DNA of 63,914 nt, filler included, from Anaerolineae bacterium (GTDB lineage Bacteria > Chloroflexota > Anaerolineae > Epilineales > Epilineaceae): the NCBI GenBank assembly GCA_029262755.1. It is 7 parts of 7 records of this genome, joined end to end, with 100 filler letters (N's around TTAATTAATTAA, not from the genome) between each part and the next. Parts side by side here need not be neighbours in the genome. Positions count along the whole stretch, not along the records: positions 27,075 to 34,410 come from JAJCYU010000334.1; positions 34,511 to 51,992 come from JAJCYU010000335.1; 5 more parts are not named here. One strand, written 5' to 3'. Made by a program: the position numbers. This document shows positions 33,862 through 36,800 of this stretch, piece by piece. The stretch's first letter is position 1; each line of letters begins with the position of its first letter.

Positions 33862-36800
33862 CCTCGTCAAAGAGGGTGGGAGTTCGAGTCTCCCCTTCCG
33901 CATTGCACCTTGACAGGGCATCCGGGAATCCGCCGCTGGCCTTCGGGCTAGAGGAACCTCCCAACTGCCACGTACATGTGGACCTCACGAAACCGGAAGT
34001 GAGGGCGCGTTGCCCGTGAGGGCGCGTGACGACAGCCGCAACAGAGAGAAGACCTGTCGGACCCGCGCATTGTGACGCGGGCGGCAAGGGTGAAAGCTCG
34101 CCGGGAAGGCGAGGGTGCGCTTCGGAGACGGGCGCACGCAGGTGAGGCGGCCACGGCAGCAAGGCGGGTGGGCCGGGCTCGTACTTGGGGCAGCGACCTC
34201 AAGCGATGTTCGGTCCCGTCGCAGCGGACGCCGGCGAGGTCGGGTAACACCCGTCAAGCTAGGCATCCGCCAGTGCCGTTCGCGGCGCTGAGATAGATGG
34301 CGGACTCGACAGAATTGGGGGTATGACCCCGATGCCCTGTTCGGTGCGCCCCCGTAGCTCAGAGGATAGAGCACCGGCCTCCGGAGCCGGGTGCGCAGGT
34401 TCGAGTCCTGNNNNNNNNNNNNNNNNNNNNNNNNNNNNNNNNNNNNNNNNNNNNTTAATTAATTAANNNNNNNNNNNNNNNNNNNNNNNNNNNNNNNNNN
34501 NNNNNNNNNNGGAGGAAAGAAGGCGTATTTCGAAGGCGGGCAGCTACCGCTTGTCCGACGCCTTCCGTACCGCCGCGGCTTCACAAACGTGTTCCGTGTC
34601 GAATACGCTCCGGTGAACTTGTCGCGCTTGGAAGCAATGTTCGAAGATAACACCGAGATCACCGCCGCGACCCTTACGTCAGCCGGCGTCCTGCGCAACG
34701 AGCGCGAGGCCTACAAGATTTTGGGCGGCGAGATCGCCAAGCCTCTCGTTGTTCACGCGCCGCGATTCAGCGTCGCTGCACGGGCGGCCATCGAGGGTGC
34801 TGGTGGCCGCTGTGAAGACACGACCGACGACTATCGGCGTCCCGGCATGCGCCGCGAGCACAAGCGCTTCCGATAGCGCGCCGGCCGCCGTTAGACGGCC
34901 GGATACGAGCACCCTTCCGAGGAGCAAGCCGCGATGTTCCGATCACTGGCTCAATCCCTGCGTTTACCGGATCTCCGGAGGCGCATCCTGTATACGTTGG
35001 CGATTCTGGCCATCTATCGTCTCGCCGCGCAGATTCCCGTACCGGGTGCAGACCGGGTGGCGATCAGCCAGATCTTGGACGGTCCCGGCGCGGTCGGTCG
35101 TCTCGGAAGCTTCTTGAACATGATGACCGGCGGTGCGCTCGAGAATTTTTCGGTGATGGCGATGGGGGTCTATCCCTACATCACCGCCTCGATCATCATG
35201 CAGCTGATGACGCCGTTGATTCCTGCGCTGGAAGAGTTGTCGAAGGAAGGGGAGTCTGGGCGCAACAAGATCAACCAGTGGACCTACTGGATGACGATCC
35301 CGTTGTGTATTGCGCAGGCGTTCGCGCAGATTGCCCTGCTCAACAGCTCCGGCAGCGTCGGCCAGCAGATCATTGAGTTTGGTCCGAACTACCCGCTCAA
35401 TACCGTGACGGTCTTGATGGCCCTGACGGCGGGTTCGATGTTCGCGCTATGGCTCGGTGAGCGCATCACGGAAGAGGGCCTCGGCAACGGCGTGTCGATC
35501 ATCATCTTCATTAGTATCGCGGCGCAGATTCCGACGAACCTGTTGAACCTCGGGCAGGCGAATGTGCTCTCGCTGGTCGTGGTGGCTCTGTTTACGATCG
35601 CCATCGTGTACGCCATCGTCGTGATCCAAGAGGGTCATCGACGCATTCCCGTGCAATACGGTCGGCAGGTCCGCGGTCAAAAAGTATACGGTGGGCAGTC
35701 TACGTTCATCCCGATGCGCGTGAACTCGACGGGCATGATCCCGCTGATCTTCGCGAGCTCGTTGATGATCTTTCCCGGTGTGATCGGCAGCCTGATGGCC
35801 AACTCGAGCAACAGCACGGTCAGCGGCGTAGGAATCACGCTTCAGAATACCTTCATCTCGGGAACGGACTGGGTTTACTTCCTCGTGTACTTCATTCTGG
35901 TGGTGGCATTCACGTACTTCTACGCGGATGTGATCTTCCGGCAGCAGAGCTTGCACGAGACGTTGCAGCGCAACGGTGGCTTCGTGCCCGGAATTCGTCC
36001 GGGCCAGCGCACCGAGACGTACTTGACCTTCGTCTTGCACCGGATCACGCTGTTCGGTGCCGTGTTCCTAGGGTTGGTGGCGATCGTCCCGTACTTCATG
36101 CAGTTCTTGACGCCGGGATTGAACGCAACGCAGTCGATGATCGTCGACAGTGCCGGGCTGCTCATTGTGGTCGGCGTCGTCGCCGATACGATCAAGCAGT
36201 TGCAAGCGCAGCTACTGATGCGCAACTATGAAGGCTTCATCAAGTAGTATCACGCCCGTTGGGGGCTGAAATTCTTGACCGAGCGGAGGGGGCGGGTTAT
36301 CCTCAACGCTTGGCTTGTCGGCAGAAAGGACCATTCCATGAAGGTTCAGGCTAGCGTCAAGAAGCGCTGCGAGAACTGTAAGATCGTGCGGCGACGAGGG
36401 CGTGTCTACGTGATTTGCAAGATCAAGAAGCACAAGCAGCGTCAGGGCTAGGAGCTCGAATATGGCACGTATTGCAGGCGTTGACCTGCCACGAGACAAG
36501 CGCAGCATCATCGCGTTGACCTACATCTTCGGTATCGGTCGCACAAGCAGCGAGCGAATCCTGGATGCGACCGGCATCGACGGCGCGGTTCGGATCAAGG
36601 AGTTGACCGAGGACGAGGTTGGCCGCTTGCGCGCGTTCATCGACCAGAACTTCAAGGTCGAGGGTGATCTGAGGCGAGAAGTGTCGCAGAACATCAAGCG
36701 GTTGCAAGAGATCGGCTGCTATCGCGGGATCCGCCATCGCCGGCGGCTGCCCGTGCGCGGCCAACGCACGCGCACCAACGCGCGCTCCAACCGGGGCTCG

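What a model noticed while it worked through the whole genome (the two positions that open the first line are those of the whole stretch)
33918..34339. Divergent RNase P RNA gene nested inside a tRNA gene array
The genome's only RNase P RNA (422 nt) was missed by the annotation because it scores 37 bits against Rfam RNaseP_bact_a (gathering cut 100). It lies on the same strand inside a tRNA array, 15 nt after tRNA-Leu(gag) and 8 nt before the next tRNA. The ribozyme is therefore probably cut out of a tRNA precursor, its 3' end by its own activity on the following pre-tRNA. The arrangement is kept throughout the order Epilineales. In the sample of the class Anaerolineae, most divergent RNase P RNAs adjoin tRNA genes (11 of 13) and none of the 20 canonical ones checked does.
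Evidence so far: The match: cmscan gives a full-length match 1-367 of RF00010, E 2.5e-10, with the conserved blocks GAGGAA, ACAGAGA, AAGGGUGAAAG, AGCAAGG and GACAGAA. The rnpA protein is present (g01338, call 98). Order Epilineales: none of 35 genomes reaches the cut (best 79 bits), and there is one match per genome, also in near-complete genomes. In 14 of 15 loci read (G000, G031, G033 and 11 of 12 more), rnpB sits between tRNA-Leu(gag) and tRNA-Arg inside same-strand arrays of 5 to 19 tRNAs. The gap to the downstream tRNA is 3-14 nt in all 14. Structure: MAFFT plus RNAalifold on these 14 RNAs (58-81% identical to G000) gives 93 consensus pairs, 82 canonical in >=85% of rows and 33 with compensatory double [...]
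(Added by a program. Inside this text positions count along the whole contig: they may not be those of the stretch shown here. "Call 12" and the like, gene names such as g00115 and contig names such as C1 are that model's own, and its searches are not shown. The text may have been shortened before it was handed on; [...] marks where a part breaks off. The agent that wrote the report below was given it as the finding of a first reader that could run no searches.)

Follow-up and report, generated by a model that had tools for sequence, protein, structure and literature searches.

The report
RNase P RNA gene inside tRNA operon
The gene for the catalytic RNA of RNase P, the enzyme that trims tRNA precursors, sits between tRNA genes in one operon here, so the ribozyme is probably cut out of a tRNA precursor partly by its own kind of activity.

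Summary
Window 33918-34339 (+) is a full-length but low-scoring match to bacterial RNase P RNA (37.4 bits, cut-off 100). It lies 15 nt after tRNA-Leu(gag) and 8 nt before a tRNA-Arg(ccg) that the contig end truncates.

It is a real ribozyme gene. Twenty relatives give 89 consensus pairs, 43 with compensatory changes. RnpA is present and no alternative RNase P was found.

New points:
- An extended P1 stem makes the RNA fill the whole 445-nt spacer (33903-34347). It starts 2 nt after the upstream tRNA and ends flush with the downstream tRNA.
- Relatives carry 21-28 same-strand tRNA genes plus rnpB, with a consensus promoter upstream and a terminator after the last tRNA. The sole tRNA-Phe/Asn genes (and tRNA-Cys in two of the three relatives checked) lie downstream of rnpB.
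- The low score reflects a Chloroflexota-wide subtype with a re-paired P4 helix. Chloroflexales share it but have no tRNA neighbours, so nesting did not cause the divergence.
- Across the class, 53 of 59 divergent rnpB genes adjoin same-strand tRNAs, against 0 of 30 canonical ones.

Co-transcription, and excision by RNase Z-type and RNase P cleavage, are strongly suggested but inferred. I found no bacterial precedent in the literature. The closest analogue is the yeast mitochondrial tRNA-fMet/RPM1/tRNA-Pro unit.

The parts
33540..33568 (+). Candidate promoter of the array (TTGACA, 17 nt, TACTCT) in the 70-nt divergent intergenic region
   Evidence: Read. It fails the tool's stricter rule, with only 3 of 6 matches in the second hexamer. 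The upstream genes are on the minus strand, so the array promoter must lie here or inside the divergent gene. Inference only.
33606..33682 (+). tRNA-Arg(gcg), first gene of the array, CCA encoded
33689..33776 (+). tRNA-Leu(cag), CCA encoded
33817..33902 (+). tRNA-Leu(gag), no encoded CCA; its discriminator A is at 33902; single copy in the assembly
33903..34347 (+). Whole inter-tRNA spacer, the proposed full RNase P RNA including the extended P1 stem (445 nt)
   Evidence: The minimum-free-energy fold (MFE) is -223.4 kcal/mol, z -4.31, with 0 of 100 shuffles folding as well, and the terminal stem forms in it. The duplex has 19 pairs at -34.4 kcal/mol, with 2 unpaired nt at the 5' end and 0 at the 3' end.
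33918..34339 (+). Match to Rfam RF00010 (bacterial RNase P RNA class A), model 1-367
33905..33909 (+). 5' strand (GCACC) of the outermost helix of the extended P1
34343..34347 (+). 3' strand (GGTGC) of the outermost helix; it abuts +1 of the downstream tRNA
33951..33964 (+). CR-I and the P4 5' strand in the re-paired form (GAGGAACCTCCCAA)
34308..34324 (+). CR-V and the P4 3' strand in the re-paired form (GACAGAATTGGGGGTAT)
34348..34411 (+). tRNA-Arg(ccg), cut by the contig end
   Evidence: Rfam tRNA model positions 8-63 at 34355-34411 and the sequence. Loose ends of DNA contigs in run X1 continue with an acceptor 3' strand (table 7).
34412..34510 (.). N / TTAATTAATTAA linker between contigs (not biological)

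Best explanation
This is the genome's functional RNase P RNA gene (rnpB). It has type-A architecture but belongs to a Chloroflexota subtype whose catalytic P4 helix is re-paired. It is the fourth gene of a same-strand tRNA operon: Arg(gcg), Leu(cag), Leu(gag), rnpB, Arg(ccg) and onward. It has no promoter or terminator of its own. The RNA occupies the whole 445-nt spacer, closed by a 19-bp extended P1 that begins 2 nt after the discriminator of tRNA-Leu(gag) and ends at the nucleotide before +1 of tRNA-Arg(ccg). The operon is transcribed as one precursor. The enzymes that release the tRNAs also release the ribozyme. On the 3' side, mature RNase P holoenzyme, acting in trans, cuts at the 5' end of tRNA-Arg(ccg). 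On the 5' side, an RNase Z-type cut (or exonucleolytic trimming back to the stem) follows the CCA-less tRNA-Leu(gag). Both new ends are then sealed in the terminal helix. Shown: the RNA's identity, its conserved structure, the gene order and spacing, the conservation, and the presence of the enzyme genes. Inferred: co-transcription, which enzymes cut, and the exact mature ends.
For: Identity:
- Full-length RF00010 alignment with CR-I to CR-V.
- 20 order-level spacers give 89 consensus pairs, 43 with both-side changes.
- 96.3% of cells are paired against 36-42% when partners are slid, and 0 of 500 shuffles reach the observed values.
- It is the only hit in the genome. RnpA is present. No HARP/PIN_5 and no type-B RNA was found.

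Nesting:
- 23 of 24 order genomes with a detectable rnpB have tRNA-Leu(gag) upstream on the same strand.
- The downstream tRNA lies 3-14 nt after the model end in 15 of 15 full-length loci.

Terminal stem:
- Its 3' strand ends 0-3 nt before tRNA +1 in 17 of 20 spacers.
- It starts 1-4 nt after the upstream tRNA in the 9 short-gap spacers.
- The parts outside the Rfam match pair better than shuffles in 10 of 10 f1 loci, z -1.0 to -6.0.

Operon:
- Three contiguous relatives have 28, 21 and 21 tRNA genes, all on one strand, with rnpB in the only large gap.
- G031 has a 12/12 consensus promoter 254 nt upstream of its first tRNA, and G009 an 11/12 promoter 305 nt upstream. Both have a strong terminator right after the last tRNA.
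- No sigma-70-like motif (8 or more of 12) lies in any of the 12 Leu(gag)-rnpB gaps scanned.
- No motif of 9 or more of 12 lies inside the spacer in 18 of 20 loci.
- In G001 and G009 the tRNA-Cys, -Phe and -Asn genes of the array have no second copy detectable by BLAST. In G031 the same holds for tRNA-Phe and -Asn.
- In G000 the tRNAs for Cys, Phe, Asn, Ile and His are missing from the assembly along with the rest of the array.

Enzymes in G000: RNase Z-like at 265 bits (cut-off 293), RNase III at 235 bits, and two CCA-adding-type nucleotidyltransferases. 268 of 301 array tRNA genes lack an encoded CCA, and tRNA-Leu(gag) lacks it in 20 of 20.

Breadth: 46 of 55 full-length divergent rnpB genes elsewhere in the class have a same-strand tRNA within 120 nt downstream (median 24 nt). 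Six different tRNA identities fill that position there, and Arg(ccg) and Arg(tct) fill it in the order.

RNA library, weak: an 880-nt contig of a relative in run X17 covers window 34288-34408. That is 60 nt of rnpB plus 61 nt of the tRNA.
Against: - There are no transcript ends and no strand-resolved reads for this organism. The RNA evidence is contigs of relatives, and those may derive from DNA in the library.
- The downstream tRNA and the rest of the array are missing from G000.
- The candidate array promoter in G000 is weak, with 3 of 6 matches in the -10 hexamer.
- The leader positions -1 to -5 of the downstream tRNA are base-paired in the model. Bacterial RNase P normally prefers a single-stranded leader (recalled knowledge).
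- The outer helix GCACC/GGTGC is identical in 5 genomes, so it shows conservation rather than covariation. Per-locus shuffle support is modest, typically 10-19 of 300.
- Outside the order, extended stems reaching the tRNA are not better than shuffles: median z -0.7, and only 7 of the 55 loci tested (45 class-level plus the 10 order f1 loci) fall at 3 or fewer of 300.
- In 11 of 20 order spacers, 26-98 nt of unexplained sequence separate the upstream tRNA from the stem.
- The RNase Z-like protein scores just below its curated cut-off.
- Related genomes are not independent.
Confidence: 0.7

Rival explanations
1. The ribozyme is co-transcribed, but RNase III excises it by cutting the long terminal duplex, as happens in the processing stalks of 16S and 23S rRNA. 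RNase P and RNase Z then only tidy the tRNA ends.
For: The terminal stem has 19-25 pairs in the f1 genomes. G000 has an RNase III gene at 234.8 bits, above its cut-off. The stem brackets the whole RNA, much like an rRNA stalk.
Against: The stem is interrupted by mismatches and small internal loops. Pairing runs right up to the tRNA boundaries, which fits ends made at those boundaries better than staggered cuts inside the helix. In the f3 genomes the stem has only 14-18 pairs.
Confidence: 0.12
2. rnpB is transcribed from its own promoter, which overlaps the 3' part of tRNA-Leu(gag) or lies in the spacer. Only its 3' end depends on the downstream tRNA.
For: In most class-level relatives rnpB has no upstream tRNA and must have its own promoter: 47 of 55 full-length loci lack one within 600 nt. 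11 of 20 order spacers have 26-98 unpaired nt upstream of the stem, enough room for a promoter. G000 has TTGACA at 33910-33915.
Against: No sigma-70-like motif (8 or more of 12) lies in any of the 12 gaps scanned, long ones included. The TTGACA in G000 has no -10 partner and lies within the P1 stem region. In 9 spacers the stem starts 1-4 nt after the tRNA. No terminator precedes rnpB, so read-through from the array promoter would occur anyway.
Confidence: 0.1
3. A promoter inside the 3' part of rnpB drives the downstream tRNAs. The junction is then not a processing site that defines the ribozyme's 3' end.
For: A 9/12 sigma-70-like match (TTGAGA, 16 nt, CAGAAT) lies 39 nt before the spacer's end in the two genomes of genus g7.
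Against: The match is absent in 18 of 20 spacers, G000 included. It falls in the universally conserved CR-V region, so a chance resemblance is expected there. With no terminator present, upstream transcripts would still run through.
Confidence: 0.05
4. The sequence is a decaying relic, and another enzyme supplies RNase P activity.
For: The very low score of 37.4 bits and an assembly that is only 84% complete.
Against: Structure is conserved with 43 covarying pairs. All five conserved regions are present and P4 is kept through compensatory changes with its bulged U retained. RnpA is present. No HARP and no type-B RNA was found. There is at most one full-length copy per genome in the order. Relatives' homologous core is abundant in an RNA library.
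Confidence: 0.02

Closest known systems
Yeast mitochondrial RNase P RNA gene RPM1 in the tRNA-fMet / RPM1 / tRNA-Pro transcription unit
   Same: An RNase P RNA gene lies between two same-strand tRNA genes and is expressed from one promoter. PMC3797045 lists 'fMet, RPM1, Pro' as one primary transcript (passage and table seen). Precursors of the RNA accumulate when processing is impaired (PMC3790967, passages seen).
   Different: RPM1 is an organellar, A/U-rich, highly reduced RNA that needs a 105-kDa protein and is further fragmented. The RNA here is a full-size bacterial type-A RNA with all conserved regions, sits in a 21-28-gene tRNA array, and has a terminal stem flush with both tRNAs.
Bacterial RNase P RNA class A (Rfam RF00010), e.g. 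E. coli rnpB
   Same: Same helices and conserved regions, and the RnpA partner is present.
   Different: It scores 37 bits against a cut-off of 100. Two P4 base pairs are swapped. By recalled knowledge, E. coli rnpB is a free-standing gene with its own promoter and terminators, and its 3' end is made by RNase E and exonucleases.
Chloroflexota RNase P RNAs (type C of Thermomicrobium/Sphaerobacter; poorly detected Roseiflexus and Chloroflexus genes)
   Same: The phylum is known for atypical RNase P RNAs. Type C is described as 'found in some Chloroflexi, intermediate between A and B' (PMC4919922, passage; PMC7191817, passages). Bcheck recovered only partial rnpB regions (P11-P12) for Roseiflexus and Chloroflexus aggregans (PMC2996960, passage). 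I saw the same partial matches.
   Different: No passage I saw describes tRNA linkage or the P4 re-pairing. I could not compare with a type C sequence, and the helix set here looks like type A.
tRNA punctuation and RNase P-made 3' ends of non-tRNA RNAs (animal mitochondrial transcripts; MALAT1/mascRNA; polycistronic tRNA operons of E. coli)
   Same: RNase P cleavage at a tRNA 5' end creates the 3' end of the RNA upstream. In E. coli, RNase P separates polycistronic pre-tRNAs (PMC7049720 and PMC2190699, abstracts seen in the listings). The mitochondrial and MALAT1 cases are recalled, not looked up.
   Different: Here the RNA released would be the catalytic subunit of the cutting enzyme itself, in a free-living bacterium.
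tRNA array units of prokaryotes
   Same: Relatives' arrays meet the published definition of at least 20 tRNA genes at 2 or more per kb (PMC4758250, abstract seen in the listing). G031 has 28 genes in 3.26 kb.
   Different: That survey's text holds no occurrence of 'RNase P RNA' or 'rnpB' (term counts).

Membership tests
Bacterial RNase P RNA class A (RF00010) | Score at or above the curated gathering threshold (100 bits) | tested here: not met
   37.4 bits. 0 of 35 order genomes reach the threshold.
Bacterial RNase P RNA class A (RF00010) | End-to-end alignment with conserved regions CR-I to CR-V in order | tested here: met
   Model positions 1-367 align, and GAGGAA, ACAGAGA, AAGGGUGAAAG, AGCAAGG and GACAGAA are present.
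Bacterial RNase P RNA class A (RF00010) | P4 long-range helix between CR-I and CR-V with a bulged U | tested here: met
   8 pairs, 100% of cells paired in 20 sequences, and the unpaired U (alignment column 219) is kept. Two pairs differ from the canonical sequence through changes on both strands.
Bacterial RNase P RNA class A (RF00010) | Conserved secondary structure supported by covariation | tested here: met
   89 pairs, 43 with both-side changes. 96.3% paired against 36-42% when slid, and 0 of 500 shuffles reach this. The structure was derived from the same alignment, which favours it, but the margin is large.
Bacterial RNase P RNA class A (RF00010) | L15 internal loop with the GGU that binds tRNA 3'-CCA | tested here: inconclusive
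   The predicted P15/P16 internal loop is 2 x 2 nt, with GU on the 5' side and no GGU on the 3' side. This reading rests on predicted folds only.
Bacterial RNase P RNA class A (RF00010) | Protein partner RnpA encoded in the genome | tested here: met
   PF00825 at 93.8 bits on contig C139.
Bacterial RNase P RNA class A (RF00010) | Cleaves pre-tRNA 5' leaders | not testable with these tools
   Needs a biochemical assay.
RNase P RNA co-transcribed between tRNAs (yeast mitochondrial RPM1 type) | Same-strand tRNA genes directly on both sides | tested here: met
   Gaps of 15 and 8 nt to the Rfam match, or 2 and 0 nt to the extended stem. The arrangement holds in 23 of 24 order genomes with a detectable rnpB.
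RNase P RNA co-transcribed between tRNAs (yeast mitochondrial RPM1 type) | One promoter for the unit, none private to the ribozyme gene | tested here: inconclusive
   No sigma-70-like motif lies in the 12 gaps scanned. Consensus promoters sit upstream of the arrays in G031 and G009, with terminators after them. These are consensus scans, not transcript mapping.
RNase P RNA co-transcribed between tRNAs (yeast mitochondrial RPM1 type) | Precursor RNA containing tRNA and ribozyme detected | tested here: inconclusive
   One 880-nt contig from an RNA library (X17, a relative) bridges the rnpB/tRNA junction. Contigs show neither ends nor strand, and DNA carry-over is possible.
Type C RNase P RNA (Thermomicrobium type) | [quoted passage not shown] | not tested
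   No type C reference sequence or model was available. The Rfam alignment shows the type-A helix set.
tRNA array unit (at least 20 tRNA genes, 2 or more per kb) | Gene number and density | tested here: met
   Relatives have 28, 21 and 21 tRNA genes in about 3 kb. In G000 only 3 genes plus 1 truncated one are assembled.

The most novel reading that the evidence does not exclude
In a large Chloroflexota clade a downstream tRNA is the obligatory 3'-end-forming signal of RNase P RNA. In this order the ribozyme gene has become fully tRNA-punctuated, with no promoter or terminator of its own. Maturation of the enzyme's catalytic subunit is then autocatalytic, and its dosage is hard-wired to tRNA transcription. 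When RNase P is limiting, tRNA-ribozyme-tRNA precursors accumulate that are themselves catalytically competent and process each other, or, with the outer P1 opened, the tethered tRNA in cis. That would give a self-correcting feedback loop and a natural counterpart of engineered self-cleaving RNase P-tRNA conjugates.
Probability: 0.25. Interest if true: 0.8.

Novelty: new variant of a known kind. Interest (0 to 1): 0.6.

Why it matters
RNase P is a universal, essential ribozyme, and how its own RNA is made has been studied in only a few model bacteria, where rnpB is (by recalled knowledge of E. coli) a free-standing gene. A whole bacterial clade may instead build the ribozyme out of the tRNA precursor it processes. 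That would be a bacterial example of an enzyme whose catalytic RNA is matured by the enzyme itself, with enzyme and substrate made in fixed proportion. It offers a simple, testable system (one precursor, two cuts) for studying autocatalytic maturation and feedback.

There is also a practical point. The re-paired P4 subtype explains why standard models under-score or truncate RNase P RNA across much of Chloroflexota. In the class sample, 41 of 140 genomes with a match score below the cut-off. 'Missing' rnpB genes in these genomes are therefore annotation gaps. A subtype model, or the rule 'look in the big gap of the tRNA array', would close them.

Tried and rejected
1. Class-wide 'extended P1 flush with the tRNA'. 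Raw duplex predictions looked striking, but a shuffle control removed the effect outside the order. Median z was -0.7, and only 7 of the 55 loci tested (45 class-level plus the 10 order f1 loci) fell at 3 or fewer of 300. The claim is therefore limited to the order's f1 family.

2. The idea that nesting caused the sequence divergence. Rejected, because the same P4 subtype occurs in 9 of 9 loci titled Chloroflexales-type, none of which has a same-strand tRNA in the flanks fetched.

3. A contrast 'canonical rnpB ends in a terminator'. My crude scan found a terminator-like hairpin after only 10 of 29 canonical genes, which is too weak to use.

4. Strict cis self-cleavage. I judge it unlikely, because the 3' end sits at the far end of a 19-25-bp P1 while the active site lies at the P4 end. 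This rests on recalled RNase P structures and was not tested.

5. RNA runs. X13 and X16 cover only tRNA parts and short conserved rnpB pieces of relatives. Parts without cover, and the small word shares of the unlaid runs X2-X12 and X14-X20, are not evidence. No run gives ends or strand.

6. Literature. Seven completed full-text searches and passages of 12 papers gave no report of a bacterial rnpB inside or leading a tRNA operon, and none of the P4 re-pairing. Subscription papers such as Haas & Brown 1998 (recalled) are not held and could describe the Chloroflexus P4 sequence. PMC55890 is not held.

NCBI lists Candidatus Epilineales under Ardenticatenia.
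Full report
**Observation.** The window is several contigs of one metagenome-assembled genome joined by N linkers. 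The finding lies on contig C334 (window 27075-34411), and its coordinates are window coordinates.
- cmscan places RF00010 (bacterial RNase P RNA class A) at 33918-34339 on the plus strand. The match covers model positions 1-367 and scores 37.4 bits against a gathering score of 100, E 7e-10.
- Upstream on the same strand lie tRNA-Arg(gcg) 33606-33682, tRNA-Leu(cag) 33689-33776 and tRNA-Leu(gag) 33817-33902.
- Downstream, a tRNA match covering model positions 8-63 at 34355-34411 puts +1 at 34348. Its anticodon is CCG, and the contig end cuts it.
- The stated gaps of 15 and 8 nt, the length of 422 nt and the conserved blocks are all correct.

**What it is.** It is a genuine RNase P RNA.
- The Rfam alignment is end-to-end with CR-I to CR-V in order.
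- I aligned the whole tRNA-to-tRNA spacers of 20 genomes of the same order. The alignment gives 89 consensus pairs, 43 with changes on both sides.
- On that structure 96.3% of cells are standard pairs, against 36-42% when partners are slid by 1-3 columns. None of 500 shuffles reaches the observed covariation. The structure came from the same alignment, which flatters it, but the margin is large.
- It is the only RF00010 hit in the 84%-complete assembly. rnpA is present at 93.8 bits. Neither a HARP-type PIN_5 protein nor a type-B RNA was found.

**Why it scores so low.** In 151 class genomes, RF00010 scores are bimodal. Full-length matches of the canonical group score about 224-326 bits, and its two contig-end fragments score 154 and 194. 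The divergent group scores 37-134 bits. The two groups differ by a clean signature in the catalytic P4 helix.
- 57 of 59 divergent loci read GAGGAAC(C/U)UCCCGACUC in CR-I and ACAGAAUCGGG(G/A)GUA in CR-V.
- 28 of 30 canonical loci read GAGGAAAGUCCG... and ACAGAA(C/U)(U/C)CGGCUUA.
- Two adjacent P4 pairs are therefore swapped on both strands: A-U to C-G, and G-C to U.G, U-A or C-G. In recalled E. coli numbering these are 67-359 and 68-358. The bulged U is kept.
Roughly 140 chance hits are expected in a collection of that size. 55 of the 80 also carry the CR-V partner. Most of the 55 bear Chloroflexota-type titles; three are titled only 'bacterium'.
- Those 55 include loci titled Chloroflexus, Chloroploca, Kouleothrix and Chloroflexaceae. 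Chloroflexus loci score 83-88 bits, also below the cut-off.
- Difficulty with Chloroflexi rnpB is in print. Bcheck reported only partial predictions for Roseiflexus and Chloroflexus aggregans (PMC2996960, passage seen). A 'type C' is described for some Chloroflexi (PMC4919922 and PMC7191817, passages seen).
- So divergence as such is a phylum-level subtype, not a peculiarity of this genome. G000 sits at its low-scoring extreme.

**Anatomy in G000.** The RNA is longer than the Rfam match.
- The sequence GCACC (33905-33909), 2 nt after the discriminator of tRNA-Leu(gag), pairs with GGUGC (34343-34347), which abuts +1 of tRNA-Arg(ccg). Together with the inner P1 this gives a 19-pair terminal stem at -34.4 kcal/mol.
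- The stem forms in the minimum-free-energy fold of the whole 445-nt spacer (-223.4 kcal/mol, z -4.31, 0 of 100 shuffles as stable).
- The spacer is therefore the gene.
- The genes upstream of the array run on the opposite strand: a DsbA-like thioredoxin, an enolase-superfamily protein and an O-antigen-ligase-like protein. That leaves a 70-nt divergent intergenic region holding TTGACA, 17 nt, TACTCT at 33540-33568. This is a weak candidate that fails the scanner's stricter rule.

**Conservation in the order.**
- None of 35 genomes reaches the Rfam cut-off. 22 have a match at E of 0.001 or better, and BLAST with the G000 spacer adds two more.
- In 23 of these 24, tRNA-Leu(gag) lies upstream on the same strand.
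- In the loci not cut by a contig end, a tRNA (Arg(ccg), Arg(tct) or Met(cat)) lies downstream on the same strand.
- The exception, G033, has only tRNA-Trp downstream.
- The downstream tRNA starts 3-14 nt after the model end in 15 of 15 full-length loci. The upstream gap falls in three size classes: 14-16, 35-39 or 93-115 nt.
- The 3' strand of the terminal stem ends 0-3 nt before tRNA +1 in 17 of 20 spacers. In the 9 short-gap spacers it begins 1-4 nt after the upstream tRNA.
- The segments outside the Rfam match pair better than shuffles in 10 of 10 f1 loci (z -1.0 to -6.0). Individual support is modest, and five genomes share the same outer helix.

**Operon context.**
- Three relatives with long contigs show 28, 21 and 21 tRNA genes, all on one strand. 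rnpB occupies the only large gap.
- G031 has a perfect TTGACA-17-TATAAT promoter 254 nt upstream of the first tRNA. G009 has TTGACA-17-TATACT 305 nt upstream. Both have a strong hairpin-plus-U terminator directly after the last tRNA.
- G031 also has one weak terminator-like site inside the array and one just before its first tRNA.
- No sigma-70-like motif (8 or more of 12) occurs in any of the 12 Leu(gag)-rnpB gaps scanned, long ones included. Only 2 of 20 spacers, both from genus g7, contain a 9/12 match, and it lies in the conserved CR-V region.
- In G001 and G009 the tRNA-Cys, -Phe and -Asn genes downstream of rnpB have no second copy detectable by BLAST. In G031 the same holds for tRNA-Phe and -Asn, while its tRNA-Cys lies elsewhere.
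- G000's 34 assembled tRNA genes lack Cys, Phe, Asn, Ile, His and Tyr. In the f1 relatives, Cys, Phe, Asn, Ile and His lie in the array after rnpB, so the remainder of the array is simply unassembled.
- Essential tRNAs thus depend on transcription that crosses rnpB or starts within it.

**Class and phylum view.**
- Outside the order, 53 of 59 divergent rnpB genes have a same-strand tRNA beside them.
- 46 of 55 full-length ones have one within 120 nt downstream (median 24 nt).
- 8 of the 55 also have an upstream tRNA, or only an upstream one (families f15, f25, f38, f47, f52).
- 6 of the 59 have none within 600 nt (families f10, f38, f50).
- None of the 30 best canonical loci has a same-strand tRNA within up to 1500 nt.
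- The downstream partner is Leu(tag) in 38 loci, Trp in 5, Ala in 4, and Met, Thr and Leu(cag) in 1 each. In the order it is Arg(ccg), Arg(tct), Met or Trp.
- Adjacency kept across changing partners hints at selection for 'a tRNA right after rnpB'. I did not build a tree, though, and related genomes are not independent.
- Among the 55 motif-confirmed loci, 39 have a same-strand tRNA in the flanks. All 9 titled Chloroflexales-type have none. The P4 subtype is therefore older or broader than the tRNA linkage.
- The sample overlaps the class sample.

**RNA data.**
- Only one run, a DNA run that is probably the source, holds the stretch.
- Four runs were laid, all as contigs.
- In a wastewater metatranscriptome (X17), an 880-nt contig of a relative covers window 34288-34408, with 4 other letters and 4 gaps. 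It bridges the rnpB 3' end and the tRNA with 60 and 61 nt on the two sides.
- A second contig joins tRNA-Leu(gag) to the rnpB core, but with only 29 letters on one side, below the tool's bridging rule.
- Summed depth over the conserved core (33995-34197) reaches 1e4 to 6e4.
- These data show that homologous RNAs are present in RNA libraries. They are compatible with co-transcription but give no ends and no strand, and they do not exclude DNA carry-over.

**Mechanism.** The most economical reading is tRNA-punctuation-type processing.
- 268 of 301 array tRNA genes lack an encoded CCA, and tRNA-Leu(gag) lacks it in 20 of 20 loci.
- G000 encodes an RNase Z-like protein (265 bits over positions 1-301, cut-off 293), RNase III (235 bits) and two CCA-adding-type enzymes.
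- An RNase Z-type cut after A33902 and an RNase P cut before G34348 would release exactly the stem-closed 445-nt RNA.
- By recalled structures, the 3' end lies at the distal end of a long P1 and the active site at the P4 end. I therefore expect cleavage in trans by finished holoenzyme rather than strictly in cis.
- RNase III cutting of the stem is the main alternative for the excision step.

**Comparison and novelty.**
- The closest known case is yeast mitochondria, where fMet, RPM1 and Pro form one primary transcript (PMC3797045, table seen) and RPM1 precursors accumulate when processing fails (PMC3790967, passages).
- RNase P also separates polycistronic tRNA operons in E. coli (PMC7049720 and PMC2190699, abstracts in listings).
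- Seven completed full-text searches found no report of a bacterial rnpB inside or at the head of a tRNA operon. The prokaryotic tRNA-array survey does not mention RNase P RNA.
- I therefore rate this a new variant of a known kind. It is well supported at the level of sequence and comparative anatomy and unproven at the level of transcripts.

Noticed in passing
window 33951-33964 and 34308-34324; loci L054-L112, L116-L195: A Chloroflexota-wide RNase P RNA subtype has two adjacent P4 base pairs swapped on both strands, with the bulged U kept. It accounts for sub-threshold or partial RF00010 matches, including those in Chloroflexus-titled loci (83-88 bits). I found no description of it in the papers I could read.
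   Followed up: partly
L087 (G152, family f15): Outside the order, one rnpB is flanked even more tightly: tRNA-Leu(gag) lies 4 nt upstream and tRNA-Leu(cag) 1 nt downstream of the Rfam match. The four other genomes of that genus gave no RF00010 match under the stricter filters.
   Followed up: no
L020, L021, L023 (family f2 of the order): The spacers are about 600 nt long. The RNase P RNA appears to carry large insertions (about 85 nt in the P3 region and about 60-70 nt in P12), and only the central part matches Rfam.
   Followed up: no
L013 (G013), gap between tRNA-Leu(gag) and rnpB: Three tandem copies of a 13-nt unit lie in the 98-nt unpaired stretch upstream of the terminal stem. Other long gaps (g7, g18) also hold unexplained sequence with no promoter-like motif.
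   Followed up: no
order loci L001-L023: Only 33 of 301 array tRNA genes encode CCA. After the discriminator most read C followed by T or C. The predicted P15/P16 internal loop of the ribozyme shows no GGU on its 3' side, which may go together with CCA-less precursors.
   Followed up: partly
L009 935-1008 (G001): ARAGORN calls a tRNA with a four-letter anticodon (cctg) at the array position where relatives have tRNA-Gln(ctg). This may be an 8-nt anticodon loop or a miscall.
   Followed up: no
G000 whole assembly: 34 tRNA genes are found, including a tRNA-SeC(tca). None is found for Cys, Phe, Asn, Ile, His or Tyr. In relatives, all of these except Tyr lie in the array after rnpB, so that part is unassembled.
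   Followed up: partly
window 27933-28235: A second small same-strand tRNA cluster (Pro(tgg), Gly(tcc), Met(cat)) lies on the same contig, 5.4 kb upstream. Minus-strand genes separate it from the array.
   Followed up: no
window 34412-34510 and other joints: The window is a concatenation of contigs joined by N runs around TTAATTAATTAA. Features must not be read across these joints.
   Followed up: yes
run X17 laid on window 33995-34197: Summed contig depth of 1e4 to 6e4 lies over the conserved specificity-domain core in a wastewater metatranscriptome. It comes from relatives at 85-95% likeness, so this RNase P subtype is abundant in that community's RNA.
   Followed up: no
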